DNA from: Bdellovibrionales bacterium
GTDB lineage: Bacteria; Bdellovibrionota; Bdellovibrionia; Bdellovibrionales; UBA1609
Length of the DNA stretch: 64,000 nucleotides
Assembly (NCBI GenBank): GCA_965261545.1
Contig: CBDHDF010000006.1
Location: 32,001 to 96,000, forward strand
Direction: 5' to 3'
The first letter of the stretch is position 1, and each line of letters starts with the position of its first letter. The position numbers and the translations under genes are program-made. Shown piece after piece: positions 32,907 to 64,000 of the stretch. The notes under the pieces were generated by a model that was not told where the DNA came from, searched no databases, and saw only the letters and a list, made by a program, of their open reading frames with translations.

Positions 32907-33019
32907 CCGCCAAGATGAGTCAGTTATCCACAGACTCATCCATGGCGACGCTGCGGCTATGGCCCTCGGAGCCACAATAAAGCAGCGCTGCTGTGGGTGA
33001 GTCTTGTGGATAACGGCGG
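32907..33019 (+). other. DnaA-box hairpin module, ISL3 copy
   Basis: TTATCCACA at 32924-32 pairs with TGTGGATAA at 33005-13; long stem homologous to the IS21 copies. Confidence 0.8.
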
Positions 33020-34281
33020 CTCTCCACACAAGTGATTTGGTAGCCCTGTCCTCCGTGTTTTTATGTACAAATCTTAGGAATAACCTGTACATCCAGTTTT
33101 TAGCTATTTCCCTAGGGAATTTGGACTTTAGGCTCCGAGAAACTCGGATATAGCCGAATATTGCAAGAGCTGTATTCTTATTTTTGGCTCTTCAATTATA
33201 CAAAGATTCAAATGAGCATAAATGAGGATGAAGACAGTGTGAATCAGTTGGTGAAAAATGACTACAAAAAACCTAACTTTAAACTGATTCTTGATTTCAT
33301 AATGGATAGCATCCCTCTTTTTGTTGCGGGGCTCTATCAGAAATTTAGGAAGCAGATAAAGTTGCTGATGAAGATTTCAATGGAGAAGAGGAGGCACTTC
33401 AAAAGAAGCTATGAAAGGTCTATCAAAAGGGCTGGGAGTTCTTTTAAAAGAAATAGCTTAACGCATGTTAGCTGACAATTAAAATGCCCCACCGTCGCCA
33501 ATGAAAAGTGGCCACTTTTCAGAGGAGGACCTATGGTGATTTTTGGCATTGTCAACCGAGACGCATATAATCAATTGATATTACTCATAAAAAGGCTCCG
33601 AGCTGATAAGAACTCCTTTTGGGTTCTTGTCGACCTGGAAAGGGGCTCCGTGTTGGAGAGTCCTTCCATGACAGCCTATTCAGGTTCCATATTTCTCATT
33701 TGTAGACTGTTTCTGGATTTCAATGAGGTTAAATATATAGTCAAGAAAAGCCTGTTTAGGCTGTGCCCATTTTCTAAAGTATTTAAATTCCACAAGATTC
33801 CAACATTTGCCTCAATTTTCATGGAATTTCTTTTTGAAGACAGGCTTCCCTTAAAGCCGTCGCCAATTAAAATGTCCCACTTTCAATATGGAGGTTGTCG
33901 CCAATGAAAAGTGACCAATCTTCAGGGAGTGTTCAAATACTAGACAATGAAGTCTCTTCTTCTGATATAGATACTAAGCTCACAGAGTCCCTCCCTTTTG
34001 CAACTCAAAAGGTTAGCAATGAGGAGGATCTTATGATTAGTCAATACACTTTCGGCCGCATTCGTGACCTGAGTCACAGTGGTAAAAATAAGACAGAAAT
34101 ATCTCGTGAATTAGGGATCAATCGTAAGACGGTGCGCAAGTACTGTAAGTCCAACACCCCACCGAAGTACAAGGCGAGGTCCAAAAGAACTCGCCCAGAT
34201 CCCCTTAATGGATATATGGATCGGGTGAAGTACTTTTTGAAGTTGAACCCAAGTAACACCGCCCGTGAAATATATGAGCTA

Positions 34282-36180
34282 CCTGAAATCCCTAAAAGTT
34301 GTAACTAGGTGTAGGACTTAAGTCCTGATTATTGTCTGAGAAGGCCTTCACTTTGATTAAGAGATTGTCATCTCTTCAAAAGCATAGTTACAATATTAAC
34401 GATGTCATACACTTTTGAGCAAAAAAATAAGGGAAAAACCTATGTCTATAAAGTTGAAAGCTTTTGGGACAAGGAAAAAAAGCAGGCCAGGCAAAAACGC
34501 ATCTACCTTGGAAGAAAGGATGAGTTTACAGGTCAAATTAAGACCAAAAGAAAAAAGATTCCCATAGGCTCCTATAATGTGGGAGCCTTATTTTTCTTAG
34601 AGAAAATATGCGAACAACTAAATCTTCTAAAAACATTGTCTAAAATTTATCCAGATAATTACGAACATTATTTGCATTTAGCTTTTTTTAAAATAATCAA
34701 AAGAGAGCCCTTTTATCTTTACGATATGTGGTGTCAAGAAGCTTATGTTTCAAAGAAAAATTTTATGTCGTCACAAAAAATAAGCAATCTCTTATGTGAT
34801 CTTGGGAGAGATCAAAAAAAGATAGAATCTTTCTTTAGCGAATGGATAAATCAAGTGAAGGGTTCTGGTACGGTAATGTTTGACATCACATCCTTTTCTT
34901 CCTACTCTATGAATAATGAATTTTTAGAGAAAGGTTACAACAGAGATGGAGAGAATCTCGAACAAATAAACTTAGGTCTGATAAGTAGGAAATCTGAAGA
35001 CAATAAAACTCATACGCCTATAGCGTACAGAATCTATCCTGGAAGTATACCGGATGTCAAAACTTTATCGAATATTATTGAGATCATAACAAGTTATAAA
35101 TTAGATTTAGATTGTTTAGTTATGGATAAGGGTTTTTCTAGTGTAGAAAATATTAAGGGACTGCATCGTAAGGAATTGAAGTATTTGATACCCATGAGTT
35201 TTAGAACAAAACTCTCAAGAGAGCTTGCTGTGGCTTTAAATGAGAAAATAAAATCTCCATCATGCTCTTTTACTTTTAATGAGGAAATTTATTCGCATTG
35301 CAAAGAATCAATAAAAATCGGAGGATTTGATTGTACGGCTCATATTTTCTTAGACAAAGAAAGAAGGGTTTATGAGGAATCTGTGTTAATGAAAGAGTTG
35401 CTTGATTTTATGAAACTCTTTCTTGAGAAAGATTTGAAATCAGAAGAACAAGCTAGTTCCTATATGAAAGAAACTTTAGGAAATAAAAAAAGGTTTCTCA
35501 ATATCTCTGATTGCACTCCATTTAAGATTTCTTTAAATGAAGAAAATATTAATGAAGAATCTTCTACGCTGGGTATTATGATATTAATTACAAATAGTCA
35601 TGATTTAAAGAAAACAAATATATTGAGTTTATATCGAAACAAAGATATCATTGAGAAAGTATTTTTCTCATTCAAGCATGATATTAATGGAAGGAGAAGT
35701 CGAGTTCATTCTCTCATGAATATGAGGGGAAGCATCTTTATTAATTTTCTCTCTTTAATTTTAATTTCACATATTGATACTGTTATGAAAGATAAGAAGT
35801 TATATAAAAAAATGTCTAAAATAGAAATTTACAAAATGATGGACCGATTAAAATTTTATGAATTAGCTACAGGTGATCTGATGCTTGGAGAGCTGTCTAA
35901 AAAACAAAAGGATATTTTTTCAGCCTTCCAAATAGATGGGCTTCCCAAGACAAAATGATGTTTTTTATCTGTTTCAAATGTGACGGTGGCTGTGGCTACC
36001 ACTATGCCTCATCTATCCAATGGGGACGAAGAGGACCTTTCGCAGCAAATTCTTATGAATCATATTAAATATATTAATACTATTAAACCTCTCAAACCGT
36101 TGACAGCAGCCAATTCCATAGGAAGAGAGGAAAGTTAACGCAATACATTAAACCTAGTTACAACTTTTAGGGATTTCAGG
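34282..36180 (+). mobile_element. IS1634-family element IS1634-A (1899 bp)
   Basis: 29-bp TIR; 6-bp TSD GAGCTA (34276-81 and 36181-86). Confidence 0.92.
34402..35958 (+). CDS. IS1634-family transposase
   Basis: 'FDITSFSSYS...GYNRDG...QINLG', 'VMDKGF', 'YRNKDIIEKVF'. Confidence 0.88.
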   Translation: MSYTFEQKNKGKTYVYKVESFWDKEKKQARQKRIYLGRKDEFTGQIKTKRKKIPIGSYNVGALFFLEKICEQLNLLKTLSKIYPDNYEHYLHLAFFKIIKREPFYLYDMWCQEAYVSKKNFMSSQKISNLLCDLGRDQKKIESFFSEWINQVKGSGTVMFDITSFSSYSMNNEFLEKGYNRDGENLEQINLGLISRKSEDNKTHTPIAYRIYPGSIPDVKTLSNIIEIITSYKLDLDCLVMDKGFSSVENIKGLHRKELKYLIPMSFRTKLSRELAVALNEKIKSPSCSFTFNEEIYSHCKESIKIGGFDCTAHIFLDKERRVYEESVLMKELLDFMKLFLEKDLKSEEQASSYMKETLGNKKRFLNISDCTPFKISLNEENINEESSTLGIMILITNSHDLKKTNILSLYRNKDIIEKVFFSFKHDINGRRSRVHSLMNMRGSIFINFLSLILISHIDTVMKDKKLYKKMSKIEIYKMMDRLKFYELATGDLMLGELSKKQKDIFSAFQIDGLPKTK

Positions 36181-37402
36181 GAGCTATTAGTTGAGGAGGG
36201 TTATCGTGGGAGTGAGAGAACGGTTCAGAGAAGAGTTTGTGAGATTCTTGGTTCTCGCCCCAAGGAGCGTTTTTTCAGCCAAAGATATGATCCTGGAGAA
36301 CAGGCTCAGTTTGATTTTAAGGAGAAGGTTGCTTTACCATTTGCCGATGGTGTTCAGATCGTTCATCTCCATTTTGGAACATTGCCTTGTAGTGGCACCT
36401 GTTGGGTTCGTGCCTACCCCTTTCTTGTCTATGAGTGTTTCATCGATGGGGTGCATGCTTTTTTGAAAAGATAGGTGGGATGAGTGCGAACATCCGTATT
36501 GATAATTTATCTCCCTGTGTGAAGAAAGTTCTTAAAGGAAATCAGCGAATTTACACCCAATCTTTTGATCGAGCCATCCAATACTATGGATTTAAGGTTC
36601 TTCCCTGCCGCGCAGGGAAGGGCTCTGACAAGGGAGATGTGGAGCGTGATATTCGAACCTTCAGTTCTCGGATAAAAAATATTGTTAGAAACAAAGGAAT
36701 TGTTTTTAAAGACTGGGATCATTTGAATCAGTTTTTAGAGTCTTATATGGATCAGCATCAGAGTGACTCCACCAAATCTCGCTTTGAGGAGGAGGCCAAA
36801 GTTCTTAAGCCTTTGCCTCCACGAGATGAAGATATTCTCTGTAAGGTGAATATTTGTCAAAGTAATGGTTATGGGACTTTGAGAATAGGTAAAACCACAT
36901 ATTCCATACCTGATGAGGTGATCCAATCTCCCTGTAAAACCGTACAGGGTCCCTATCATGTCACGATCTATCGTGCAGGAGGGAAGCAAGAAATTGTCGC
37001 TCGCCATCAAAGAAAACCTGATGGGGAGCATAGTCTTCTTCTTGAACATATCCTTCCCTCTTTAGTTCGTAAGCCGCAAGCCATGGTAAGATGGGCTCAC
37101 CGATCCATTCTTTTTCCAACAAATGTGTTTGAAAATTTTTATCAATACCTCAAGCAACAAGATTCAAGCCGTGCCGAGCATGAATATTTAAGAGTTATCA
37201 ACTTGATTCAGCATGTGAGTTGGCAGGACTTATCTACAGCCATGGAGCTTCAATTAGAAAGTCGTGAGATTTTCGACTTTAAATCCATAAAAGATTTGCT
37301 CTTAGGCAATCCCACCAAAATTAATTTGAATGACCAACAAAAACCACTTCAACCTAGATTGTCTCAATATGACAGTCTTGTTCCAAACATAGGAGGTTCT
37401 TA

Positions 37403-38185
37403 ATGAATCACGAAGAACTTATAGGTTCTCTTAAAAAACTCCGACTTCCAGCGATGGCGGATGAATATGTTGCAACGGCTAGAGTTGCCGAAAAAACAAA
37501 AAAGACGTATGAACAGTATTTAGGTATACTCGTTCAAAATGAGCTTGCTGACAAGCATTCCCAGAGAGTGAAAAGATTGCTTAAGGGGGCCAAGCTTCCT
37601 CAACTTAAATCACTCCAAACTTATAACTTCCAGAAAAGAACGGGAGTGACAGCTCAGCAAATTAATTGGATGGCAGAGGGAGAGTGGGTCAGAAAAGCCT
37701 GTAATGTTGTGTTTTACGGAAGCTTTGGAATGGGGAAAAGTCATTTGGCCATGTCCCTAGTTCGTTCACTCTGTGAACAAGGCTATCGATGTTTATGGGT
37801 CACCACTCATGAACTTATTGAAACAATGCGTGAAAGCAAGAAAGAACTCTCATTGAATGCTCTTTTTAAGAAATTAGACCGTTTTGATCTTATTGCTTGT
37901 GATGAACTTGGCTATACAGCTTCCTGCACAGAGGGGGCAGATCTTTTCTTTCAATTCATATCTCAGCGATATGAAAGGAAAAGTCTCATGATCACTACAA
38001 ACTTAACATACTCTGAATGGGATAAGGTGTTTCTTAACCCTATTACCACCGCTGCTGCTGTTGATCGAATCATTCACAACTGTGAAACCCTCAACATTGA
38101 AGGAAAAGAAAGTTGGAGAACCGAATCGGCAAAAGCCAAGTCTAAACAGAGCAAAGAGGAAAGTTCAACCAAAGAAGTTCATTAG
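37403..38185 (+). CDS. istB: IstB AAA+ ATPase
   Basis: Walker A GSFGMGKS, 'CDELGY', 'ITTNL', 'AAVDRIIH'. Confidence 0.95.
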   Translation: MNHEELIGSLKKLRLPAMADEYVATARVAEKTKKTYEQYLGILVQNELADKHSQRVKRLLKGAKLPQLKSLQTYNFQKRTGVTAQQINWMAEGEWVRKACNVVFYGSFGMGKSHLAMSLVRSLCEQGYRCLWVTTHELIETMRESKKELSLNALFKKLDRFDLIACDELGYTASCTEGADLFFQFISQRYERKSLMITTNLTYSEWDKVFLNPITTAAAVDRIIHNCETLNIEGKESWRTESAKAKSKQSKEESSTKEVH

Positions 38186-38212
38186 AGATCCCCACTTTTG
38201 GGGAAGGAACTC

Positions 38213-38311
38213 GCCAGTTATCCACAAAAATTTATCCACAGCAGCACTGCGTTGCTAGACATCGGGGTCACAGCCGCAGTGTCGCCATGGATAAATTTAT
38301 GGATAACTGGC
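38213..38311 (-). other. DnaA-box hairpin module, IS21-A copy 1
   Basis: Two perfect TTATCCACA boxes (38218-26, 38232-40) facing two near-perfect inverted boxes; GCCAG...CTGGC closing stem. Confidence 0.85.
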
Positions 38312-38471
38312 TTTTACCGTACTATTTGCTCGTCACTCTCGCGGAGCTTTAGACATTAGCTGCGCCAAGGAATCCTGAAAAATACTCCATTTACCTCTGC
38401 CATAGGGCTGAAGGATGCATTTGGGGTCATGCCAAAAGTGGTGGGCAGAAAATCATTCCTCAGAATCTTGT

Positions 38472-40382
38472 CCCGAGTTTGACAGCAGCATCTGCGTTAA
38501 AATGCGAAATTTCCAGAAATTGGGGTTGTACTGAAATATAATGGTAGCTGCTGGAAAAATTAAAATTGACGTAAAAAAAGTGTAGAAAACAAAATAGGAT
38601 TTTATCGTTTTAAATATTGATATATCATAGAAATATGTAGAAAATATCCTCATGTACATCCAAACGACTAAAACTCAAAAGGTCAGTGCTACTACCACCT
38701 TGTGGAGTCCTACAGAGAAAAAGGCAAATCCAAAAAACGCATGCTCATGTCCTTAGGTAAGGCTGGAGAAGGAGGAGAGGATAAGATTAATAGTTTGGCG
38801 CAGGCCGTATCCCGCCACCGAGAGCTTCTCACTGTGAGTCAATTGGCTAAGGAGCTTTACATCGAAGAGACTTTCATTTTGGGTCCCTTGCTGATTTTAC
38901 AAAAGTTGTTTGATCAACTGGGTATCAATAAGACCCTCAAAGACATAAAAGATTCTCATGAGAAAGTTCAATTTGATTTATGTAAGGTGATTTTTACCTT
39001 AGTTGCCAGCCGATTTATTGCTCCTAGTTCCAAGTTAAAGGTTTTTGAGTATTGGCAAAAATCTTTTTACCCAGACATGATTAAGGGTGATTTGAGTCTC
39101 CAGCATATTTATCGGTCTATGGACTTACTTGCCTCCCATAAGGATGAAATAGAGAACTCGCTTTATTGGGTGGGGCGAGATTTATTTAATTTCCAAGTAG
39201 ACATTGTGTTGTATGATTTAACAACCTTACGCTTCGAGAGTACAAGAACAGACTTAGGGAAACTTCGTCAATTTGGCTATAGTAAAGAGAGACGATCAGA
39301 CTGCACCCAAGTTGTCTTTGGTTTGTTGGTGAATCGGGATGGCATCCCTTTAGGTTTTGAGGTTTTCCCTGGTAATACTTTTGAAGGCAAGACGCTTTCA
39401 GATATTGTTGATAAAATGAGAAAAAAGTTTAATGTACGCCGTTTCATTTTTGTGGCTGATAGGGGGCTTTTATCAAAGGCTAATACTGACAAACTCAGTG
39501 AGGATCAAAGCGAGTTTATTGTTGGTATGAAGCTTGGATCTTTAAAAAAAGAAAAGAAACAAGAGGTCTATGATTTAAATCGTTTTAGCTGGGTATATGA
39601 GAATGAGCTTGCTGTTTACGAAACAGACCATGGGGGGCATAGATGTATTGTGACTTGGTCTAGGAAAAGAGCAGAGAGAGATAAAAAATCTAGAGAATCC
39701 CTTCTTGAAAAGATCGAAGGAAAACTATCTTCTAAAGGTGTTCAGTCTAGTACTTTTGTTTCCAATAAAGGTTATAAGAAATATGTAAAGATGGCTGACG
39801 ACAAAAATAAAAAACCTGAATTAAATGCAGAACAAATAGAATTAGATGAAAAAATTGATGGTTTTTTGCCGTCCTTACAAATGTCAAAGACTTGACGGCA
39901 GATGAGATTATTATCAACTACAAAGAATTGTGGAAAATTGAAGATGCTTTTGGTGAGTTAAAAGGGACTTTGAAAACACGTCCTGTTTTCCATTGGACAG
40001 ACCAGAGGATTATTGGACATTTAACTCTATGCTTTTTAACTTATCTTTGTGAGGCCCACCTTACAAAATGTTTAAGAGATAAGAAGATGAACCTAAAAAG
40101 CCCAGCCATAGGCATTGGTCATGTTAAAGAGCGACCTTTAACTGTTGTAGAGGCCATGAGGGAACTCAAGGAAGTTAGGGCTATCCCTGTTAAAATTCGT
40201 GATCAAGTCATTTGGACCCGCACAGATATCACTGGCAATGCCAACTCCTTATTTAAAGCCGCAGGCGTCCCCATCCCTCCCAGAATCCTTAATGCCCACA
40301 AGTGTGGATAAACAAAATACAACTGTATGCGTTAATCCTTTAATATCATTCGTTTGACGCAGATGCTGCTGTCAAACTCGGG
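38472..40382 (+). mobile_element. IS1634-family element IS1634-B copy 1, flanked by a 53-bp direct repeat
   Basis: 26-bp TIR CCCGAGTTTGACAGCAGCATCTGCGT; DR 38419-38471 = 40383-40435. Confidence 0.93.
38652..40311 (+). pseudogene. IS1634-B transposase with two 1-nt homopolymer deletions
   Basis: Matches 41618-43279 except A4 vs A5 near 38670 and T6 vs T7 near 39865; these may be assembly errors. Confidence 0.8.
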
Positions 40383-40623
40383 ATTTGGGGTCATGCCAAA
40401 AGTGGTGGGCAGAAAATCATTCCTCAGAATCTTGTGGCATAGTCCGAGTTAAATGATGAGCAAAATAAAGACACTTGACTAAACTCTGAACGAAGAATAA
40501 CTAAATCAGTACATCATCAACTGGCCGTTTTTCATTGGCGACGGCTTCTAAAAATGGCCAATTTTAATTGGCGCCTAACAACGCAGAGGCAGAGGGGTGT
40601 GGTGGCTTAAGGAAACGGCATTG

Positions 40624-41546
40624 CCCAAGGGGTGGTTGACCATCCAGAGTTTAACTGAGTGAGGTCACTTGCTGAGTTGACATTGGGAGGAGGGACTCCG
40701 CCTCTTCCCAATGTATTCCCACTGATAATACGACCAAAACCATAACTTAATGTGACCGTCCCGCGGCTCTCCCCTAGAAGGGCACCACTATAGGAAGAAG
40801 GGCGAGAAGAGGTGGTGGCGGTGGCAGAAACACTTCCTGTTGCGTAACTTGAAGTGATAGTTCCATTCCCACTCGATCCTGCATTGCTTCCCACCAAGCC
40901 ACCAGCCCAGGAGGAGGAACGAACACCGCTGTCTAAGGATAAGGCAAAAACATTTCCTGTTGCATAGCTTGAGGTGATTGTACCACCATTAGATCCCACC
41001 AAGCCACCACTGCTGGAGTTAGAAGTCAAAATAGAGGCGGACGCAGAGGATGCAGAGGAGGAAACATCTCCTGTTGCATAACTTGAAATGATGGCTCCTC
41101 TATTGTTATGTCCTACCAAACCGCCACTATTGGAGGAGATAGATAAGAGGGAAACAGAGGAAGCAGAGGAGGCAGAGGAGGAAGAAGAAAAAACAGCTCC
41201 TGTTGCGTAACTCGAAATGATAGTTCCACTATTATAGCCCACCAAACCACCACTGTAAGATGTGGACAAGATGGAGGAAGAGTTGATGGAGGCAGAAACG
41301 GTTCCTGTTGCATAACTTGAGGTGATGGTGCCACCATTATATCCCACCAAACCACCGCTGTAGGATGTAGACGAGTTGGAGGAAGGGTTAGGGGTGGAGG
41401 AAAGAAAGGAGGAAAAAACAGATCCTGTTGCGTAGCAATCCTTGATCCTACCAAAATTTATCGCAACTAAAGAACCCACATAATCTCTACCTTCCACATC
41501 GGCCATTTCAATACCAAGATTTTTAACAGTCCCACCAACTCTTAAT
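40624..41546 (-). pseudogene. Middle fragment of the GLUG lipoprotein (GLUG repeats)
   Basis: Repeated 'SGGLVGYNGGTITSSYATG(T/A/D/N)V' units with Ser-rich spacers. Confidence 0.88.
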
Positions 41547-43459: not shown

Positions 43460-44102
43460 ATCCTGTTGCGTAGCAATCCTTGATCCTACCAAAATTTATC
43501 GCAACTAAAGAACCCACATAATCTCTACCTTCCACATCGGCCATTTCAATACCAAGATTTTTAACAGTCCCACCAACTCTTAATGTAAGAAATAAAGCCG
43601 CATTACCAGTGGTCACATGGATTGTGGGATTCATAATTTTTTTGCCGCGTCCATTCAATATTCCTGAAAAGTTGGCAATGGGAGAAGCGTCTTGATTCTT
43701 TAAGTCAATATTTTGACCCATTACATAGTTAAAAGATGATGAAGAATACATAAAATGACCTAGCAATGCTAAGTGAGCAGGCGAACATAAAACAAAGGGA
43801 TCATTCGCAGTGCCCAAGCCAGGTAATTCACTATCCATTGTGTTGGGGTCATTGCAAATCTCTAGGTCAGGCTCCTCGCCGGGAATCTCTGGCGTGGGTG
43901 GAGCGGGCTCCTCGCCGGGAATCTCTGGCACTGAAGTTGGACTCTTTAACCTGTAACTACGATAGGAACTTTCTTCATGACATGCAGACAGCAGTAAGCA
44001 ACACAAAAGTAGTAAGAAACATAAGAACACATGGCCAAGAAATAAATTGCAACGCATGGTCGATAAATTGTAACGATATTCCTTCATTTTGATCTCCAGC
44101 AC
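43460..44102 (-). pseudogene. N-terminal fragment of the GLUG lipoprotein
   Basis: Lipobox LSAC, PEIPGEEP duplication, 'GLGTANDPFVLCSPAHL', 'FSGILNGRGKKI'. Confidence 0.85.
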
Positions 44103-45079: not shown

Positions 45080-45209
45080 AATAAATAAGAGTCATTTGCG
45101 AATTTTACAAACCCAATAGGCAAGCGAGGCACTCGTGGGCAGGCAAAGCAAAAAGCAACCTACAGTGGGCAAGTAAAGACCCAAAGACCCATAAATAAAT
45201 AAGGCACAT

Positions 45210-51831: not shown

Positions 51832-52890
51832 TTGGCAACAGATGTCGAAGTTGAAATTTCATCTCTGCTTCTCATGGAGCCAGACCCTTCCTGTATCGCA
51901 CACAACTTATGTCAGAAGATCCAAGCCTCAGAATATGATTTCAATGAAAAAATCACGTTTTTAAATGCACTCATCCATATAGGCTTTTATAAGGAGGCTC
52001 TCTCCAGCATTCTTGACCTTTGGAGGGAATATCCCAAGAACTTTGCTTGGAAGCCACTTTTATTTCTCCTTCTAAAGCTTGAAATTTACCCATCTCAGGA
52101 TTTGTTGGACACTGTTTTTGAAGGAGCCTATCAGCAAAATAGCATAGATGAACTCGGAGCTATAAAAAAGTGGGAAGTTTGGGATGGGCGCTTTAAAGAA
52201 GCCCATTTGACTGCACAAAAGAAAAAACAAAAAGAACTACAAGAGAAGGGCGCAGAACTACAAGACCGGGCTCAATTTCTTAGAACACAAAGAATATACG
52301 ATGAAGAGATCGCACTGCTCCAAAGACTCTCCGCTCTTTTCCCTAAAAACCAAAATATCAAAACGCAGCTTAAAGAGGCCGAGAGTCTATGGTCTAAGGC
52401 TGTCATATCGAAGGCATCCTATAATAAGGATAGCTGGTTACACTCACCAAAGAGATCTTCGAAAAGTACCGACCCATGGGAAAAGCAATGCGACCATTGG
52501 CTCCAATTTATTCTAGATACGGTTCAAGAAAAAAGAAATATGAAAAAAAAACAGATCTACCACTTAGGTTTATTCTTTAAATTTATTGAAGCTCCCCACC
52601 ACGCACTCAAAGTCTTAAAAAACCTTGAAGGCTTTGCTGTGGACTGGTTAAGGATTGACATTTATATTGACTCGGAGCAATATATTCTGGCCCTAGAAGA
52701 AATTTCCAAGGTAGAAAAAAAGTATGCCGAACACCCAGAAACAAGTTTTGCAGCAAATTACTCCAGGGGAATTGCATTAAAGCACCTCGGACAGGAGCCT
52801 GCAGCTATTGAATTTATGAAAAAAATTGTTCAAGTCAAGAGAGACTACAGGTCTGCCCTTCAGTACATTAAAGACTGGGAGTCGCCATGA
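51832..52890 (+). CDS. Hypothetical helical protein with C-terminal TPR-like repeat
   Basis: 352-aa ORF; 'ANYSRGIALKHLGQEPAAIEFMKKIV...YRSA'. Confidence 0.65.
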   Translation: MATDVEVEISSLLLMEPDPSCIAHNLCQKIQASEYDFNEKITFLNALIHIGFYKEALSSILDLWREYPKNFAWKPLLFLLLKLEIYPSQDLLDTVFEGAYQQNSIDELGAIKKWEVWDGRFKEAHLTAQKKKQKELQEKGAELQDRAQFLRTQRIYDEEIALLQRLSALFPKNQNIKTQLKEAESLWSKAVISKASYNKDSWLHSPKRSSKSTDPWEKQCDHWLQFILDTVQEKRNMKKKQIYHLGLFFKFIEAPHHALKVLKNLEGFAVDWLRIDIYIDSEQYILALEEISKVEKKYAEHPETSFAANYSRGIALKHLGQEPAAIEFMKKIVQVKRDYRSALQYIKDWESP

Positions 52891-52915
52891 GTACAAACAA
52901 TCGCCCGTGGAAGCA

Positions 52916-55900: not shown

Positions 55901-57082
55901 AATGTCTCTGCAGATCTTTTGTTTAGCAAAAAAAATCTTCTCATCAACACCTTTAAGGCTAATTTTGCTAGAGGAAGCATACAGTCCTGGGGCAAAGTTC
56001 ACTTTCTTGAAATAAATAAAGTGCCCATAGATATTAAAGCTAAATTTAAAGGTATTTCTTTGGATGTCCCCGAAGGAGTCCACACAAAGGGGGATGGAGA
56101 TATACATATTTCAGGAAATTATTTTCCCTATAAAGTTAGAGGACAATATAACATTTTAAGTGGTGGAGTGAAGAAGAACTTTTCGATACCAATATCAAGT
56201 TTTAAGAAAAGAGTCACACCCAGTATTATTCTTCCTGATTTTTTAAACAAAGCCAGAGAAACACCTATTGATCTCAAATTTGCATTGCATATTAATAATC
56301 CAATTAAAATACAAACACGAGTTAGCACTGTAGATATTAATACCCAAGTCCATGGACATGTCAAAGTAATGGGACCATATAATCAAATCATATTGAGAGG
56401 AACCCTTGAAACAATGGATGGCGGAGAAGTTAACTTCAGATCTAATATTTTTAATATAAAGACAGGTCGAATTGTCTATAGAGATTCTTCTCCCTTTGAC
56501 CCTGAAATACTTATTTCTGCCAACACGAGGGTCGGAGGATCAGACATTAACCTTGTCGCTCAAGGAAGACCAAGTTCACCTGAGATACATTTAACAAGTC
56601 GCCCCCCTATGCCAGAGCATGAAATTATATCTTTATTAGTTTTTGGACTCACATTAAAAAAATCATATACTCTTTCGCCGTCATCGATATTTGATGAAAA
56701 TAATCAAAGACAATCTACCTTTCAAGCAGCCTCTGCAATTTTTAATGAACAAATCGGTCTTACAAAAGAAATTAACAATCAACTTGGTATTCAAGTGGAT
56801 ATTTCTTCGTCCTATGACGAGACAACGGGAGCAATTATTCCATCTGTTGTCGCTCGAAAACAGTGGACACCTCAATTTGGAGCCTCCATTGCAAGAACTA
56901 TAGGTAACAAAGAACCTACCAATCTTCTGAGAACGGAGTATCGTATTAATAATAATGTTTCATTCGTAGGATCATTTAAACAAAAAGAAAATAGCTCAAC
57001 AGAGACTGATATAAAAAATTCTAATATTTTTGGACTCGATTTGGAATATAAATTTGAATTCAATCTAGATGATGACAAATGA
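52916..57082 (+). CDS. tamB: TamB/AsmA-like translocation module protein
   Basis: ~1390 aa, N-terminal anchor, beta-rich; C-terminal 'LTSRPPMPEHEIISLLVFG'; overlaps the Omp85 gene. Confidence 0.8.
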   Translation: MMSQRTVIRMSGLLSLTCLLIGFLYSYYSPRLKSWLLLEIATQSQKHLHIKLLPESLELTFLPLGLSIHNIHMTPQPPLKDNLAPTNIDRVDIYFQLSPLFRKNLKLKHIHVTGGTFKYTQQLSKKSAQEPSQKPSEKSPQKKDINLDLLLNLPIDQISTENVNIYVKMEKKEEHNLREDTLIQAIDLKSNLRIVSGHIYFDVLSNKVIFKKTNPHASINMGLFAQIQVSKDRIQIDSIKFTKNRSFFNISGKISGHLNQNQYNTINIKTEGDIKLEDLTHIISGVFPQKTIPQMEGDIDFKVRINHKRKQSLLLDIDIKSQNTYLNKIEVGNFQIKGKNKGRKFLTSFFRIENSGAKTQIHNFNILLRDEYYFSGDIDLSYFELKNFLNTLKIENTLVHMDANGNIPCEGRLKPEFELNCHYDLKIPLLEVQKDNYSLSHTTKLPKLSKLSKSSNKMKLVGKLKLPHNKIKSPHNKVKLKNIYAKGEVSISSKKLTYKSDIGFPSAKAQTHGSVSFNKDFLYISHYKGTIEKLSNIDNLFDLNLSGSVHIKGTAQGNITGKPKHTLIDMNLQGRHGYLKDWFLGHPSFHMKYHQGILKFSDLEGRFHQTKYHGNITLDFLKNNISLNIEAPLLRLNIFNNSFKKKFNINPRLHGSGKAHMNLWGPFSKLNYKLKSKFHRGSLYGEGFDVLECHISSKSGESSLDNVLIKRRQSSLKLSGFVEHNGNIDAHLSGHRITIEQIDNLESLGLDLTGQFDFESKIQGPHQKLTAQIEGTISNTMVRDAAIKDSTFKIHTTEDKMSGHFNLLGGEIDSKFHLPLKKGNPFSLSIYTKNWDFTKFFSMFSESVEKKSFQSKMTSEINLSNENGNLWKSSGYGQISRFEISRGPIFMYAPQTMKIFFSNGIMKTQNFKIIGENTFLEVISEGSSYEKINIALNGILNMGLGILITPFLNELNGRLTFSNQISGHLFDPYIKGSIDIKDAFIQIKKFPHPLENVSADLLFSKKNLLINTFKANFARGSIQSWGKVHFLEINKVPIDIKAKFKGISLDVPEGVHTKGDGDIHISGNYFPYKVRGQYNILSGGVKKNFSIPISSFKKRVTPSIILPDFLNKARETPIDLKFALHINNPIKIQTRVSTVDINTQVHGHVKVMGPYNQIILRGTLETMDGGEVNFRSNIFNIKTGRIVYRDSSPFDPEILISANTRVGGSDINLVAQGRPSSPEIHLTSRPPMPEHEIISLLVFGLTLKKSYTLSPSSIFDENNQRQSTFQAASAIFNEQIGLTKEINNQLGIQVDISSSYDETTGAIIPSVVARKQWTPQFGASIARTIGNKEPTNLLRTEYRINNNVSFVGSFKQKENSSTETDIKNSNIFGLDLEYKFEFNLDDDK

Positions 57083-60045
57083 ATATAGATATGACTATGA
57101 CTATAAAAAAAATCATTATATTTTTCGCATTCATCCTTTCTTTTAGCCAAACCACGATGGCTAGGGAACAATTTTTGTTCGAATCTATATCAGAATCAGA
57201 TATCAAGTCTATCAAAAAAAAATTTCTTAATCACCAAAAATCTTCACCCAATAATCAAATCATCCTCCCTCCCAAGGCCAACACACCCCTTCAACTCAAT
57301 ATTTCTCTCGGAGACAAGATTATTAAATACTTAATGATGACGGAACGATATAAATCTGTCTCCCTCATAAAAAGCCAAAAAGGTCTTATTATTAAGGGAG
57401 AAAAATCTCGTATTATTAGAAAAATTTCTATTAAAGGAAATAAAATTATAAGCAATAAAAAGATTGCTTCTTTCACCTCCTTATCTGAAGGTCAAGGCAT
57501 GAATCGCTCTTCTTTGATTCAAGGGGTAAGCGCAATCAAAAAATATTATAGCGAGAGAGGTTATATCAACGTCAACGTTCAAGTAAAAATAGTCTCTACT
57601 GGCAAGGATGGCATTCACCTCAAGTATGTCATTGAAGAAAATGAGCCTTGCTTAGCTGACAACATTGTTATTACAACGACTAATAATAAAATAAAGAAGA
57701 AAATTCTATCAAAAATAAAAAAATATAAGAACAAAGTATTTTCTAACAAACTTATTTTTAAAATAGACGAATCTATCAAAAATACCCTCCAAGAAAATAG
57801 ATATATAACTTCCCAATTGGAACAGGTCCAAGCCATTTATAACGAAAAAAAGACACGTGTAAAAATAGAGTATAAAATAAGAAATCCCTATAAATATGAA
57901 ATATATATTTTTGGCAACAAGGAGTACTCAAGATCATCAATTTTGCGCACCTTCGGCATTAAAAAAGTTCAATCACACAATATTGATCCTGTTAATGAGA
58001 TGCGAATTCAACTTAAAGATCGCTATAAGAGGGATGGATTCATTCATGTTAAAGTTGACTACACAATAGAGTCTCACCTATCCTCATTCATCAAAAAAGT
58101 AGTATTTAAAATAACCGAGGGACCAAAAGTAAAAATAAATAAAATCAAAGTTTCTGGAATTTTGAAGAAAAAATCTAAACGATATGAAGAATTTATCAGT
58201 CAAAATAGTTCAGATTTAGTAGCTTCAGGATACTACAATTTAGAAGATATTAAAATAGGAAGGGATAATCTTATCGCTCACCTAAGAAACCAAGGTTACC
58301 TTCAGGCGATTCATATTTCAACATCTATAAAATATCTGAATCGAGATAAATCATTGGGGGATATATCCATTCTTATTGATGAAGGTTTGCCAACAAAAAT
58401 TCATCATATTAAATTTACAGGTGCTAATTTTTTTACAAACCAACAACTCATAAAACAAGTAGGCATAAAGGTCGGATCCCCTTTGAAAAATCAACATGTA
58501 AAGGACGGTGTACAAAAATTAAAAGATTTTTATGCAAACCAAGGATTCTTGGATTTTTATGTGAGAAATGAGGAATCAAAAAATATCATAACCCCCAAAA
58601 AACCAATCATTCAGTTCAATAATCTTAATAATCAAGAAGACTTAAACTTTAATCATCAAGTAGATTTAGCTTTTATGATTTATGAAGGTCCTCAAATCAA
58701 AGTGGCCTCTATTCTTATAGAAGGCCACTCTATCACCAAAGATTATGTCATCCTCAAAGAACTTAACTTTAATGTCGGCGATGTTCTCACACGAAAGAAC
58801 ATACTCCTCTCACAGAAGGCTCTGAATCGCCTCGGTATTTTTTCTCAGGTTGACATTCAAGTTCTTGGGCAAGGAACAACGAATTCCTGGCGCACCGTGC
58901 TTATTCGCATTCGTGAAGCCAACCCAGGATCCTTTAAAACGGGCCTGGGGCTTACCAATGAAAGGCAGCTAACAGGCCGCTCTTATGTAGGAGCTGCCTA
59001 CAACAATATCAGAGGTACTTCACGGTCCTTAAGCGGGCGCCTTGACTACCAAGTAAGCCTTGTTGAAAAAAGAGCCTCCAATGAGTTGCAAGCCACTATG
59101 GGCTACTTAGAACCTTATCTTTTCGATTCCATGTGGCGTGGGCGTATCAACTCCATTGCCGCCAAAGAACTACGGGATCAAGATGAACAGGTAGAGAGGT
59201 ATGCAATAAGCCAAACACTCGACCTCATCCTTGAGAAGAATTTTAGCCAAGAAATCACGTTCAATTGGACTCTTTTAAGCTGGACCCAAAGACGCCTTGA
59301 TATTGAACCCAAACCAAATTCAAGTTTAAGCCGAAAAACCTTAAACGAACTCAAAATTGCTCAAATAGGGCCTAGCCTAGACTTTGAGTATAGGGACAGC
59401 CCCTTTCTCCCCACAAAGGGCTACTATGGTAAACTGAGTGCATTTTATGCCTCTCCATTACTGGGCAGTTCAGACCCCGTGCACTTTTTTAAGATGGAAG
59501 GAAATTTTCGACATTATTTACCCATCGGAGAAACTCGATGGATTTGGGCCAACTCTTACAGTGCAGGCTATATAAAAGATATTCTAGGAAATAATGGACA
59601 AAGCGGCATTCCATTTCTCTCCTTTTTCTTTCTCGGTGGGCAAAGATCCATTCGTGGATTTGGCGGCAGTGATGAGCTGGAAAGAATTCCCAGTAGTGAT
59701 ACACTCAGCCTTAGCGATCCCAGTAGTTCCACACAATTAAGACAGGCCGAACTTATCCAAACAGAAAAAGCTTTTTATGGCCTTTTCCGCTCTGAAATCC
59801 GATTTCCCATTAAAGGAGTGTTTGGTGGTGTTCTTTTCTATGATGTGGGCGGGGTTCATATGTCAGATATATCTCAGAGAAAAACTTGGAGGCAAAGCTT
59901 TGGAGTCGGCCTGAGATTAAATTCACCCTTCGGACCTATTGTCCTCGATTATGCACGAAAAATCAATCCTTTGTCTGGCATTGGACGCTATGGCCAACAA
60001 AATGAGCGAGAGAGTAAAATTCATGTTTCTATTGGTACTTTTTAA
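57079..60045 (+). CDS. Omp85-family protein (TamA/BamA-like) with multiple POTRA domains
   Basis: POTRA repeats, 'FFLGGQRSIRGF', 'GVGLRLNSPFGPIVLDYA', C-terminal Phe. Confidence 0.9.
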   Translation: MNIDMTMTIKKIIIFFAFILSFSQTTMAREQFLFESISESDIKSIKKKFLNHQKSSPNNQIILPPKANTPLQLNISLGDKIIKYLMMTERYKSVSLIKSQKGLIIKGEKSRIIRKISIKGNKIISNKKIASFTSLSEGQGMNRSSLIQGVSAIKKYYSERGYINVNVQVKIVSTGKDGIHLKYVIEENEPCLADNIVITTTNNKIKKKILSKIKKYKNKVFSNKLIFKIDESIKNTLQENRYITSQLEQVQAIYNEKKTRVKIEYKIRNPYKYEIYIFGNKEYSRSSILRTFGIKKVQSHNIDPVNEMRIQLKDRYKRDGFIHVKVDYTIESHLSSFIKKVVFKITEGPKVKINKIKVSGILKKKSKRYEEFISQNSSDLVASGYYNLEDIKIGRDNLIAHLRNQGYLQAIHISTSIKYLNRDKSLGDISILIDEGLPTKIHHIKFTGANFFTNQQLIKQVGIKVGSPLKNQHVKDGVQKLKDFYANQGFLDFYVRNEESKNIITPKKPIIQFNNLNNQEDLNFNHQVDLAFMIYEGPQIKVASILIEGHSITKDYVILKELNFNVGDVLTRKNILLSQKALNRLGIFSQVDIQVLGQGTTNSWRTVLIRIREANPGSFKTGLGLTNERQLTGRSYVGAAYNNIRGTSRSLSGRLDYQVSLVEKRASNELQATMGYLEPYLFDSMWRGRINSIAAKELRDQDEQVERYAISQTLDLILEKNFSQEITFNWTLLSWTQRRLDIEPKPNSSLSRKTLNELKIAQIGPSLDFEYRDSPFLPTKGYYGKLSAFYASPLLGSSDPVHFFKMEGNFRHYLPIGETRWIWANSYSAGYIKDILGNNGQSGIPFLSFFFLGGQRSIRGFGGSDELERIPSSDTLSLSDPSSSTQLRQAELIQTEKAFYGLFRSEIRFPIKGVFGGVLFYDVGGVHMSDISQRKTWRQSFGVGLRLNSPFGPIVLDYARKINPLSGIGRYGQQNERESKIHVSIGTF

Positions 60046-60115
60046 AAAAATCCGTGCCAATCAATTGACAAAACAAGCAATTGACAAAACAAGAAAAATT
60101 TGGAACAATTATATA

Positions 60116-60887
60116 ATGACTCTTGTATCTTCTTCAAATCAAGGAGGTTTCACGATCACCGCAGCACTGATGTCTGTGGCTATCGTGGGCGTAGGTATGT
60201 CTGCCATGATAAGCATGCTTTCGTTTCAACATAGAGAACTTCAGTCCATCAAAGAGCAGCTTATTAGTTCCAATATAAAACAATTTATCCTACAAACCAT
60301 GAAAGATTTGAGAAAATGCGATTGTCACTTCAATTCATCTTTGAACTCCGGCCCCTTCAACGGTGAAGCTGTAGGGCCTTTCACCATCGACATGACAACA
60401 CCACCCATTGGAGACATTAACCTAGGCAGCCTCCGCACAGGTTGTGATTTCACAGGAACGAACAATATCATCGTCGCGGCAGGAGCAACCATTAAAAATA
60501 TGGGACGGCTAAAGACAAAATCGGTCCGAGCAAAAAAGATTCAGCCCACAACAACCCTCGGAGAGTATCAAGCTGAACTTACGGTGGATTTTGAAACACC
60601 AAATCGCCCCCTCAGGCCCGTCGTCGTAGATATTCTTCTTTCTGTTGACACCACGGTAGCTGGTGCCCAAAGCCCATAACTCACTGTGGCCCGACACTGG
60701 TTGCAGCAGCCAGCAACACAGATTCTGCCGTGTACAAATATAAAACTCAGTTCGATAACTTCATTGAAAATACAGAGTTTAGTATCCTAACCCCCGGCAG
60801 CACCATTGTTCAATGCTTTAAAAAAACATTTCGATGTTCTGGAGAGCATAACCTATCCACATCCACCTGCGATTACTCTTCAAGAGG
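60116..60887 (+). pseudogene. Prepilin-like protein, frameshifted and probably truncated by IS21-B
   Basis: 'NQGG|FTITAALMSVAIVG' prepilin-type N-terminus; stop at 60679, but the -1 frame continues 'PITHCGPTL...' to the IS end. Confidence 0.55.
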
Positions 60888-60896
60888 TATTTATTG

Positions 60897-60966
60897 CTGA
60901 ATTTCACGAGTTTGACCCACTGAATTTCACGAGTTTGACCCACTGAATTTCACGAAGTTTGACCCA
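60897..60966. repeat. Three tandem ~23-bp terminal repeats of IS21-B
   Basis: CTGAATTTCACGAGTTTGACCCA x3 (third with one extra A). Confidence 0.9.
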
Positions 60967-61246
60967 CCCCTCAGTCAGTCAATTTGAGGTCCAATTTTGA
61001 ATTTCACGGTGGCTCAAACTTTGTCAATTTAAACCTTCTTTTTTCTGCTGACTCAGTAACTTTTACACCCTCAATGTCACGATGTCCCAACGGTGGGTTA
61101 AGGCTTATTTGCCAGAATGTTAGATGCCAACTAAAATTGGCCACTTTGTCATTGAGAATCTCGGCCCTTCCCATTTTTGAGGTTTCAATGGAGGGTTTTT
61201 CGATGGGGATGTTGAACCCATGGCTCAAAATGGCAGAGAATAGCGA

Positions 61247-61344
61247 GCCAGTTATCCACAAATTTATCCATGGTGACGCTGCGTCTGTGACCCCGATGTC
61301 TATCAACGCAGCGCTGCCGTGGGTAAATTTTGTGGATAACTGGC
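61247..61344 (+). other. DnaA-box hairpin module, IS21-B copy
   Basis: TTATCCACA at 61252-60 and TGTGGATAA at 61331-39; 90/98 identical to the IS21-A copy at 63828. Confidence 0.85.
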
Positions 61345-61433
61345 GGGTACATGATTCAATAGTTCCGATGGAGTGTCTCCCGATGGTGTCTTCTGATGGT
61401 GTCTTCTAAGGTCTGCTTTTGCATGGATTCTCC

Positions 61434-62162
61434 TTAAATCGTCTTTCTCTGCCTAAATGAGCTTCCAGACATGGCTATTTTGATAGCTTGAGAGGTTATG
61501 CGATCCATAATAGCTTCACAAACGATGGGATCCCCAATGACTTCACTCCAATTTTTTATTGGAAGTTGGGTTGTAAGAATGAGGCTCAGGTCAGGGCCTC
61601 GTTCATCAATCACATCGTAAAGGTCTTGATATTGGCTGGAGGTAAGGGGTTTGATACCAAAGTCATCCAACACAAGTATAGAGATTGATTTTAGCCTTTT
61701 AAGGAAGTTTAGATATGTCCCCTGGGCTCTTTCTAAGTTGAATTTTTCAACAAGAGTATTCATTCTGAAGAACTGAGTGGAAAAACCCTGGCGACAGGCG
61801 TGATTGCCTATGGCACAAGCCAAATATGACTTTCCAACACCTGTTGGGCCAGAGATAATTATATTTTGACCTCTTTGAGCAAATCTCATAAGGGCTAGAT
61901 CACTCAAAACTCTTCGATCGACTCCTCGGCTGGGCTTGGTTTCAAAGGCCTCAAGGCTTGCTTTTTGCTTCAAAGCTGCTCTTTTGATAAGTCTTAAGAC
62001 CTTCTGATTGTCACGATGGATTTTTTCGTCCTCAAAGATGACATTTAGAAAGTCCTCGTAACCAAGATCCTGCTCCTCAGCTTCTTTGAGCCTCTGGCTC
62101 AAGGTTGCTAAAACTCCCCTCATTTTTAATATCTCTAATAAATTTTCTGTTTGTTTAATCAT
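61434..62162 (-). CDS. istB: IstB AAA+ ATPase
   Basis: GPTGVGKS, LDDFG, LTTQL, AIMDRI. Confidence 0.95.
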   Translation of the reverse strand: MIKQTENLLEILKMRGVLATLSQRLKEAEEQDLGYEDFLNVIFEDEKIHRDNQKVLRLIKRAALKQKASLEAFETKPSRGVDRRVLSDLALMRFAQRGQNIIISGPTGVGKSYLACAIGNHACRQGFSTQFFRMNTLVEKFNLERAQGTYLNFLKRLKSISILVLDDFGIKPLTSSQYQDLYDVIDERGPDLSLILTTQLPIKNWSEVIGDPIVCEAIMDRITSQAIKIAMSGSSFRQRKTI

Positions 62163-62243
62163 TTTCTTCTCCTATACGACCTCTCTTATGGAGGTCAAAA
62201 TGACCCGTTAGGTGGTTGAGAACCACCCACCGGGGCTATGTGA

Positions 62244-63522
62244 TTAGTGGCGGCAAGCATTCTCCCAGTGCTCTGAACCTCTTAAATTTTCATTAGGTTG
62301 ACGGCAGACTCTTGGCTCCTCTTTTCGATGACTTTTTGCTGAAATGACTTTCTCAACTCCACGAACCCTAATGTCACTTAAAGCTGCATCTACAAAAAAT
62401 GAGCAAGCCTGCTCCAAAGAAGCTGTTGAATACCGTTTTCTTAGATTGAGTATCCCCTGAACACGACGAAGATACATAAGCGGATGGCGAGGCTCTTTGA
62501 TAAGCCGCTCGGCAACTTTGTGAATGCTTTCTCCAAGGCTTGATGCCTCTTTAAGTACATTTTGTGGCGTTTGCTCTAAAATGGGCCGGTGGGACTCAGG
62601 GAGATGAGATTTTGTCGTAAAGTAGCGCCCTCGACTGCCCTGGGGGATGTGATGTATCGCCACCCGCTCTAATTCTGAATAAACCTCCAAGCATTGTTGG
62701 CTAATACGAATATCTAATTTCTTGCCGCGATGCTTATAAGGAACAGAGTAAAAATTGTAGTTATATTGAATGTGACAATCCGGATGAACCTTGGCATGCT
62801 TCCAGAATCCACTCTCATAGCGTCTTTCAGGAAGAGGATTCAATTTTGACTTCTCAAAAGATTCAAACTTCTGTCGACGACTCAACCCATACTTTTTTTG
62901 AATACGATCATTGAAAATAGCTGCCAAATGCTTCAACTCAGCGTTGATGTCTGCTAGAGAATACATTTGTCGCTCTCTTATCTGGGGCCAAGACCAGCGC
63001 CAAAAGACTCCAAGGGTATTTTCGATAAGACTCTTGTCTTTGGGATGAGATGGCCTCATCGCCAAAGGAGCCACATTGTAGTGATCACACAAGAGGTGAA
63101 ACTCAGAGTTAATATCGGGATCATAAGTATCAGCTCTTGTCACTTGAACCTTTGCGTTATCAAAAGCAATGGTTTCGGTCACACCACCAAAAAACTCAAA
63201 ACCAGAAGCTATGGAGGAAAAAACATCTTCCCGCTGCTCTGTTAATGTGGCGCAGGGAAAGAAAAACTGACTCGATGGAAGTATCATCCCAAATAATCGA
63301 CATTGGATGAACTCCCCAGTCTTGGTATCTGTATAGCCAAAACAAGAGTCTTTTCCCTTATAGTCAAATTCACTCCGCTCACCAGGGGTGAATGTCTGGT
63401 GCATATCAAGCTTTATACTTGGGTGCCTCCGACGAAACTCTCTCCAAAAAGAAAGATAACTCACACCGTCAATCTCGGACTGAATATGTCGCTCCCAGTA
63501 ATGAGCTAATTGAGTCCCTAGG
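62244..63522 (-). pseudogene. istA: IstA transposase, 5' part displaced by IS21-A copy 2
   Basis: PGERSEFDY, FDNAK, KDKSLIEN, YSVPY; the frame stays open up to the insertion at 63523. Confidence 0.88.
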
Positions 63523-64000
63523 TGTTAGGCGCCAATTAAAATTGGCCATTTTTAGAAGCCGTCGCCAATGAAAAACGGCCAGTTGATGATGTACTGATTT
63601 AGTTATTCTTCGTTCAGAGTTTAGTCAAGTGTCTTTATTTTGCTCATCATTTAACTCGGACTATGCCACAAGATTCTGAGGAATGATTTTCTGCCCACCA
63701 CTTTTGGCATGACCCCAAATGCATCCTTCAGCCCTATGGCAGAGGTAAATGGAGTATTTTTCAGGATTCCTTGGCGCAGCTAATGTCTAAAGCTCCGCGA
63801 GAGTGACGAGCAAATAGTACGGTAAAAGCCAGTTATCCATAAATTTATCCATGGCGACACTGCGGCTGTGACCCCGATGTCTAGCAACGCAGTGCTGCTG
63901 TGGATAAATTTTGTGGATAACTGGCGAGTTCCTTCCCCAAAAGTGGGGATCTCTAATGAACTTCTTTGGTTGAACTTTCCTCTTTGCTCTGTTTAGACTT
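63523..64000 (-). mobile_element. IS21-A copy 2 (right end, partial)
   Basis: Reverse complement of the IS21-A right part, without the IS1634-B insertion and with a single copy of the 53-bp segment. Confidence 0.93.
63828..63925 (+). other. DnaA-box hairpin module, IS21-A copy 2
   Basis: Reverse complement of 38213-38311 apart from a 1-nt homopolymer difference. Confidence 0.85.

What the first reader, a model, noticed from the sequence alone, without database searches (positions are those of the whole stretch)
32907..63925. Conserved DnaA-box hairpin module shared by unrelated IS21 and ISL3 elements
SEEN: A ~98-110-bp element lies 30-90 bp downstream of the last transposition gene in ISL3 (32907-33019), IS21-A (38213-38311, 63828-63925) and IS21-B (61247-61344). 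IS21-A and IS21-B have different ends and clearly divergent IstA/IstB, yet their modules differ at only 8 of 98 nt and the flanks are unrelated. Each module is a long hairpin whose arms carry two DnaA-box-like 9-mers each, with two perfect TTATCCACA boxes per module. Substitutions are compensatory: AATTT/AAATT vs GACTC/GAGTC, CACTGC/GCAGTG vs CGCTGC/GCAGCG, apical GAC/GTC vs GGC/GCC. KNOWN: TTATCCACA is the consensus DnaA box. A DnaA box in a single-stranded hairpin stem (plasmid R6K ssiA 'A-site') assembles the ABC primosome. IS21 and ISL3 elements form circular intermediates. INFERENCE: This is a portable cis module exchanged between IS families. It may recruit DnaA/DnaB to prime copy-out replication, couple transposition to replication, titrate DnaA, or act as a structured RNA. 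I do not know of a description of it, but I could not search.
Basis: partly seen in the sequence, partly recalled or inferred. Interest (0 to 1): 0.85.

Follow-up and report, generated by a model that had tools for sequence, protein, structure and literature searches.

The report
Portable DnaA-box hairpin in insertion sequences
Four different jumping-gene types in one bacterium carry the same 100-base fold-back DNA stretch whose stem matches the binding motif of the host's replication-starter protein DnaA; it is an optional add-on that likely helps the cell's own machinery start copying single-stranded forms of the element, which is untested.

Summary
A ~100-bp imperfect palindrome lies 26-88 bp behind the last gene of ISL3, IS21-A and IS21-B. 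IS21-A and -B differ at 8 of 98 nt, while their IstB proteins are 25% identical. The genome has 106 copies, all in ends of IS21-A, IS21-B, ISL3 or a fourth carrier, IS110, and they hold 202 of its 298 perfect DnaA boxes. The boxes match the host's oriC boxes. Pairing is kept by 4 compensatory and 5 wobble changes, and the module has no segregating sites within families. Its travel left footprints: a relic IS21-A-type end in IS21-B, an ISL3 end in IS110, and one A-flank/B-module hybrid. It is accessory: 0 of 49 IS21-A relatives carry it, nor do two other IS21 families here. It faces opposite ways relative to the transposase in ISL3 and in the others, which argues against an mRNA element. No Rfam match and no homologue outside this lineage; one analogous box-bearing hairpin family in a relative. 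Best reading (about 40%): a DnaA-bound single-stranded DNA hairpin that helps prime element copies. Against: box polarity is opposite to the R6K candidate hairpin, and nothing functional is shown.

The parts
32918..33019 (+). Module in ISL3; + strand (transposase sense) folds best; perfect boxes 32924-32932 (+) and 33005-33013 (-)
38212..38312 (-). Module in IS21-A copy 1; - strand (antisense to istB) folds best; perfect boxes 38218-38226 and 38232-38240 (+)
61246..61345 (+). Module in IS21-B; + strand (antisense to istB) folds best; perfect boxes 61252-61260 (+) and 61331-61339 (-)
63827..63926 (+). Module in IS21-A copy 2; perfect boxes 63899-63907 and 63912-63920 (-); group II intron landing site after 63900 in other copies
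61118..61149 (-). Relic right end of an IS21-A-clade element, 200 bp inside IS21-B's own right end: footprint of module capture
   Evidence: (E = 9e-5 with a profile from A-clade relatives)
30008..33155 (+). ISL3 element (1721 bp when intact, 8-bp target duplication), here interrupted at 30131-31546; transposase 31589-32854
33466..40580 (+). IS21-A copy 1 (3246 bp when intact), interrupted twice by other elements; istB 37403-38185
60895..63522 (-). IS21-B (2983 bp when intact): istB 61434-62162, istA 62244-63464 cut by the insertion of IS21-A copy 2
63523..64000 (-). Right end of IS21-A copy 2 (runs beyond the window)

Best explanation
The module is an optional DNA cassette that four insertion-sequence types in this genome have picked up from one another and kept intact, and it likely works as a folded single strand whose stem rebuilds a double-stranded DnaA box, so that host DnaA would load the replicative helicase and primase on single-stranded copies of the element. 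Shown: the hairpin, the boxes, their match to the host oriC boxes, conservation, confinement to IS ends, capture footprints, absence from relatives. Inferred: folding in vivo, DnaA binding, and use during the step that turns the displaced strand of a copy-out circle (or transferred single-stranded DNA) into duplex. It would raise efficiency rather than be required.
For: 106 of 106 copies (E<1e-10) have an IS21-A, IS21-B, ISL3 or IS110 flank. Host dnaA is followed by an oriC with TTATCCACA-type boxes. In 7 variants the outer 9-bp box duplex varies at one position only (C-G to T-G), while 3 of the next 5 pairs change on both sides; overall 4 compensatory, 5 one-sided and 23 invariant of 35 pairs. 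All 5 one-sided changes keep a pair through G-T on the same strand, and that strand folds better in 5 of 5 variants. Invariant wobble and mismatch positions persist, which template switching alone should erase (inference). 0 segregating sites in 301 module positions against 4.7 expected at element-wide rate (P about 0.01) or 13 at flank rate. Opposite orientation to the transposase in ISL3 vs IS21/IS110 fits a DNA-level role. IS21, ISL3 and IS110 are listed as forming circles (PMC9333248 and bioRxiv 10.1101/2023.06.07.543989, passages). DnaA loads DnaB at a box-containing hairpin on ssDNA (PMC6127211, passages). An analogous long hairpin with 2-mismatch boxes and one-strand wobbles sits at an ISL3 end in relative G041.
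Against: Not needed for transposition: 0 of 49 distinct IS21-A-clade loci have it, most ending 60-100 bp after istB; the two nearest IS21-B relatives seen end right after istB; two other IS21 families and other circle-forming families in this genome lack it. The box-bearing hairpin beside the R6K replication region has the box pointing the opposite way relative to the loop (its identity with the A site is unconfirmed). The strand bias is weak: 6 of 7 non-Watson-Crick positions, P = 0.06 one-sided, and DNA folding differs by only 0.7-3.5 kcal/mol between strands. No orientation bias to local GC skew, 42 vs 30 of 72 scored copies, P = 0.19. Compensatory changes in inverted repeats can arise by template switching (bioRxiv 10.1101/2021.04.15.439925, search listing and abstract start only). 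Only about 5 distinct variants from one genome underlie the covariation. No binding or priming data.
Confidence: 0.4

Rival explanations
1. Duplex DnaA-binding site: two convergent tandem box pairs bind DnaA in double-stranded DNA and regulate the element, as a transcription roadblock protecting the right end or host genes, or as a cell-cycle coupler as at the Tn5/IS50 ends. The symmetry is then upheld by template switching rather than by a folded function. DnaA titration is a side effect.
For: Two perfect boxes in every variant; 202 of 298 perfect boxes of the genome lie in modules. DnaA binds Tn5 ends and can out-compete transposase (PMC3347997, passages). Works in either orientation, matching the mixed orientation seen.
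Against: The GC-rich inner stem between the boxes is conserved and covaries twice at one pair, and one-sided changes favour one strand, which duplex binding does not need. The boxes lie about 140-400 bp from the element tips, not in the transposase site as in Tn5.
Confidence: 0.22
2. Hitch-hiking palindrome without benefit to the elements: captured through nested insertion and deletion in an IS-saturated genome, homogenised by gene conversion among about 100 copies and by template switching.
For: A third of the genome is multicopy DNA (1.45 of 4.3 Mb) and nesting is common. Capture footprints and an A-flank/B-module hybrid show passive exchange. Relatives do without it. Not found in 400 phylum genomes or the species-level collection.
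Against: Three or more captures retained precisely this piece while flanks were lost or diverged; no segregating sites where flanks have 2-8%; a perfect host DnaA box in the stem is unlikely by chance (about 7e-4); long palindromes are usually unstable in bacteria (own knowledge).
Confidence: 0.17
3. Structured RNA element (RNase III substrate, stability hairpin, or part of a small antisense RNA) that controls transposase expression; the DnaA likeness is secondary.
For: G-U-tolerant changes on one strand, and RNA folding favours that strand by 4-8 kcal/mol in 5 of 5 variants.
Against: The favoured strand is sense in ISL3 but antisense in IS21-A, IS21-B and IS110; no terminator-type U tract and no shared promoter; no Rfam family; an RNA stem gives no reason to fix a DnaA consensus.
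Confidence: 0.12
4. Miniature DnaA-dependent origin that melts duplex DNA (basal unwinding system) and over-replicates the element locally.
For: Each arm has tandem boxes 3-4 bp apart, the outer one closer to consensus, then a GC-rich stretch, as in the origin pattern of PMC8287927 (passages).
Against: Three T-centred trios within 16 bp of a box are absent in IS21-A, IS21-B and IS110 on both strands; ISL3 has one loose run after a 2-mismatch box; the host oriC passes cleanly. No AT-rich flank is shared between carriers. About 100 active origins would be hard to tolerate (inference).
Confidence: 0.05

Closest known systems
A site of the ABC primosome (ssDNA hairpin holding a DnaA box; Masai 1990 as described in PMC6127211 and PMC3737561, passages read; original papers not held)
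   Same: Hairpin with a DnaA box in its stem; imperfect stem with G-T pairs on one strand (as in the R6K candidate hairpin).
   Different: The A site has a single box; the module has a perfect outer box duplex plus a degenerate inner one, a 35-pair stem, and box polarity opposite to the R6K candidate hairpin. It sits in chromosomal insertion sequences, not at a plasmid origin. That the A site comes from R6K is recalled, not read.
DnaA box in Tn5/IS50 ends (PMC3347997, passages read)
   Same: DnaA site carried by an insertion sequence, a host factor that can modulate transposition.
   Different: One box overlapping the 19-bp transposase site, no hairpin, not exchanged between families; here the boxes are well inside the ends.
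Basal unwinding system of bacterial origins (PMC8287927, passages read)
   Same: Tandem boxes followed by a GC-rich stretch.
   Different: No conserved DnaA-trios; arranged as an inverted pair that can fold.
REP/BIME, RPE and MITE-type palindromic repeats (recalled)
   Same: Multicopy, about 100 bp, palindromic, used as a target by another mobile element.
   Different: No free-standing copy, no target duplication of its own, always inside an IS end.

Membership tests
A site (ABC primosome) | Hairpin with a DnaA box in its stem | tested here: met
A site (ABC primosome) | Host DnaA that reads this box | tested here: met
   dnaA over cut-off and oriC with the same boxes, (sequence level only)
A site (ABC primosome) | Same box polarity and stem sequence as the R6K site | tested here: inconclusive
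   Candidate R6K hairpin has opposite polarity and no match to model R1, but it could not be confirmed as the A site
A site (ABC primosome) | DnaA/DnaB/DnaC/DnaG-dependent priming on SSB-coated ssDNA | not testable with these tools
   needs bench assay
Basal unwinding system (oriC) | Tandem DnaA boxes then GC-rich spacer | tested here: met
Basal unwinding system (oriC) | Three or more DnaA-trios within 16 bp of a box | tested here: not met
   Absent in 3 of 4 variants, one loose run in ISL3; host oriC positive
Tn5/IS50-type end with DnaA box | Box inside the terminal transposase-binding site | tested here: not met
   Module lies 137-328 bp from the nearest tip
Rfam RNA family | Score above a family's gathering threshold | tested here: not met
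   0 hits in the window; only sub-threshold hairpin-type chance hits
Intrinsic terminator | Short GC stem followed by a U tract in transposase-sense orientation | tested here: not met
   orientation differs between carriers
REP/MITE-type independent repeat | Copies outside IS elements with own boundaries or target duplications | tested here: not met
   0 of 106 copies free-standing

The most novel reading that the evidence does not exclude
Insertion sequences trade a class of accessory host-replication cassettes: DnaA-box hairpins that fold on single-stranded transposition intermediates and call in the host primosome. This module and the analogous hairpin in relative G041 would be two members. 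It would supply a cis site for second-strand synthesis in copy-out transposition, and 100 copies holding two thirds of the genome's perfect DnaA boxes would let an IS burst retune host replication timing.
Probability: 0.3. Interest if true: 0.85.

Novelty: new variant of a known kind. Interest (0 to 1): 0.6.

Why it matters
[quoted passage not shown] A small, swappable, conserved DnaA-box hairpin gives a directly testable candidate, with natural controls: same-clade elements without it, and a same-genome hybrid. Whatever the function, the module now holds 202 of this genome's 298 perfect DnaA boxes, a possible sink for the initiator. It also documents module-level exchange between IS21, ISL3 and IS110.

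Tried and rejected
Homologue searches, all blank: BLAST in plasmids and phages; BLAST in 60 relatives, one 24-nt chance hit; pattern in 400 phylum genomes, 0; covariance model R1 in 141 class genomes, 0, with no positive control in that set; pattern in the species-level genome collection, 2 hits, both chance; three viral pattern scans gave DnaA-box clusters or chance matches only; IstB and ISL3 protein scans of viral contigs gave nothing useful. These patterns are strict and short-read assemblies lose IS copies, so this is 'not found', not 'absent'. A looser inverted-box pattern hit 28 of 201 genomes; of 29 loci folded only the G041 seed was a comparable hairpin. Homology between the module and the G041 hairpin was not established (18, 469 and 110 of 1000 shuffles reached the score for three arms; no R1 hit). 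Group II intron insertions in the module first looked like evidence of folding, but the same intron also sits in a non-hairpin site with the same sequence, so targeting is by sequence. Derivation from a miniature element with box-bearing ends was considered and dropped: the similar 19-mer is at one end only of a 31-copy element. No RNA holder listed. No circle junction in assembled contigs of 4 runs; contigs cannot show absence. No replication-strand bias. My box-hairpin screen found only 2 of 3 positive controls, so its negatives are soft; the nhmmer negative on the A-clade loci does not depend on it. Ten literature searches showed no description of such a module in their listings; ISfinder, TnPedia and subscription journals could not be searched and no supplements were read.
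Full report
Observation. The four stretches are in the window as described. A covariance model built from seven variants places them at 32918-33019, 38212-38312, 61246-61345 and 63827-63926 (they match by construction). IS21-A and IS21-B modules differ at 8 of 98 nt; ISL3 differs from either at 19-20 positions plus 3 gaps. The carriers are distinct: IstB 25% and IstA 23% identical, different ends and target duplications, intact lengths 3246, 2983 and 1721 bp. Family labels come from Pfam. Both strands fold into one long hairpin, far beyond shuffles (z -4.0 to -8.5). Every variant has two perfect TTATCCACA boxes; the inner boxes are 0-3 mismatches off.

Genome census. A profile search gave 111 merged hits, 106 at E<1e-10; the other 5 are four half-modules cut by insertions and one chance hit. 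By module type: 60 IS21-A, 19 IS21-B (one of them a hybrid, below), 23 ISL3, 4 divergent. Of the last four, one is a decayed ISL3 end and three lie behind an IS110 transposase, antisense, inside 182 bp that are 84% identical to the ISL3 right end. An earlier scan note pointed to IS110; I checked it. No copy is free-standing. 202 of 298 perfect boxes in the genome are in modules; 37 more are one position overlapping the stop codon of another multicopy element. Of 36 multicopy protein families examined, only those of IS21-A, IS21-B and ISL3 carry such a hairpin; two further IS21 families do not. The host is probably a member of Bdellovibrionota (FtsZ look-alikes; nearest IstB-B relative in Bdellovibrio; a lead, not a classification). 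It has one dnaA, and the dnaA-dnaN gap holds boxes of the same consensus and a box-GC-trio unwinding motif.

How it moved. IS21-B carries, 200 bp inside its own right end and about 130 bp beyond the module, a relic right end of the IS21-A clade (E = 9e-5 with a profile built from metagenome relatives). The simplest history is nested insertion of an A-clade element into B followed by deletion that spared module and end (inference). IS110 took its copy with a piece of ISL3 end. One copy (G000:C11:695068) has a 306-bp flank that differs from IS21-A's at 13 of 307 columns, yet its 74 visible module bases equal IS21-B's and differ from IS21-A's at 7: module-only exchange.

It is accessory. The metagenome scan returned 74 IstB relatives. 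I read the DNA behind 60 of them, dropping 14 distant or partial ones. None matches the module (best E 2.7), and most show the same terminal repeats 60-100 bp after the stop codon; 0 of 49 distinct loci pass a generic box-hairpin screen. The two nearest IS21-B relatives seen (51-52% IstB) end directly after istB. Among 39 other IS21 loci, 28 distinct ones had enough downstream DNA: 0 pass, one (L482) has a 38-pair stem with a single box-like 9-mer. Among 36 ISL3 loci, 1 of 34 distinct passes. That screen recovered 2 of 3 positive controls. The one hit, in G041 of the same order, is a 48-50-pair hairpin with 2-mismatch boxes and one-strand wobbles; that genome has three full variants and half copies beside IS21-like terminal repeats. 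Homology to the window's module is not shown, so I call it analogous. Direct homologues were not found elsewhere.

Constraint. On 7 aligned variants, of 35 stem pairs 23 never vary, 4 change on both sides, 5 on one side and 3 outermost pairs are lost in some. The rows are related: three compensations mark the IS21/ISL3 split, the fourth appears in two lineages. The outer box duplex changes at one position only, to a wobble, while the adjoining pairs covary: sequence is held in the box, pairing beside it. All one-sided changes are G-T-compatible on one strand, a modest signal (6 of 7 positions, P = 0.06). Within families the module has 0 sites segregating in two or more copies over 301 positions, against 124 over 7950 element positions and 2-8% in non-coding flanks; Poisson P about 0.01 and 2e-6, overstated because sites share haplotypes and hits under 90% identity were dropped. 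Template switching can produce compensatory changes without selection (listing only), but would tend to remove the invariant wobbles (inference).

Mechanism. A sequence-fixed DnaA duplex in a stem that tolerates strand-specific wobbles, in either orientation to the transposase, fits a folded single-stranded DNA site best. DnaA loads DnaB at such a hairpin in the ABC primosome (PMC6127211, PMC3737561, passages). IS21, ISL3 and IS110 are listed among circle-forming families whose figure-eight intermediate is processed by host replication (PMC9333248, bioRxiv 2023.06.07.543989, passages). I put this at 0.40. Against it: relatives do without; other circle-forming families here lack it; the only strong box-bearing hairpin near the R6K replication region (25908-25956 of NZ_LT827129) has its box pointing the other way, though I could not confirm that it is the A site; strand energies differ little as DNA; no strand bias to GC skew, in line with weak IS bias outside Firmicutes (PMC3971601, passages). 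Rivals: duplex DnaA regulator as at Tn5 ends (PMC3347997, passages), 0.22; hitch-hiker, 0.17; RNA element, 0.12; mini-origin, 0.05, since trios are missing in 3 of 4 variants (rule from PMC8287927 passages).

A second user. An ORF-less 645-nt group II intron (Rfam) has 7 intact 5' ends in the genome; 5 sit at module position 74 and 2 in the terminal repeat of another element that shares 15 of 16 nt with the module's 3' arm. It is also seen in a public run. Targeting follows sequence, so it says nothing about folding.

Novelty. No Rfam family. Ten full-text searches listed no description; ISfinder and subscription journals were out of reach. The parts are known (A-site hairpin, DnaA box in IS50); a DnaA-box hairpin cassette swapped among IS families is, as far as I could search, not. 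Earlier notes of this scan report the same module in this genome and similar cassettes in other genomes; they are leads, not independent support. Verdict: real, conserved, portable and accessory; new variant of a known kind; function untested; interest 0.6.

Noticed in passing
   Followed up: partly
L433:358-480, L434:150-272, L435:1501-1625, L436, L437 (G041): Analogous 48-50-pair hairpin with three box-like 9-mers per arm at an ISL3 3' end, two more full variants, and half copies beside IS21-like terminal repeats.
   Followed up: partly
L339, L351, L353, L354, L367 (behind istB); L283 (behind ISL3); L274, L275 (before ISL3): A second kind of GC-rich accessory hairpin cluster near IS ends, without DnaA boxes, several starting with a similar 7-mer; resembles plasmid single-strand origin motifs (recalled).
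   Followed up: no
G000:C11:817825-819170 (31-copy DDE element, left end): Box-like 9-mer near the left end, 17 of 19 nt like the outer arm of the ISL3 module; an IS50-like end with a DnaA box or a shared origin.
   Followed up: partly
G000 whole genome: 1.45 of 4.3 Mb is multicopy DNA; at least 36 multicopy protein families, the largest with 126 members; GC skew is scrambled away from oriC.
   Followed up: partly
L001-L120 (viral contigs): Many phage contigs carry dense clusters of perfect DnaA boxes in both orientations, some in recurring families; possible DnaA sinks or DnaA-dependent origins.
   Followed up: no
L396:25908-25956 (plasmid R6K record): Hairpin with a one-mismatch DnaA box and one-strand G-T pairs upstream of the replication region; candidate for the A site.
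   Followed up: partly
L482, behind istB: 38-pair hairpin with one box-like 9-mer at an IS21 3' end in a genome of the phylum of G512.
   Followed up: no
L150:1221-1257: Single borderline Rfam CRISPR-DR16 match (35.3 bits, cut-off 35) near the IS110 copy.
   Followed up: no
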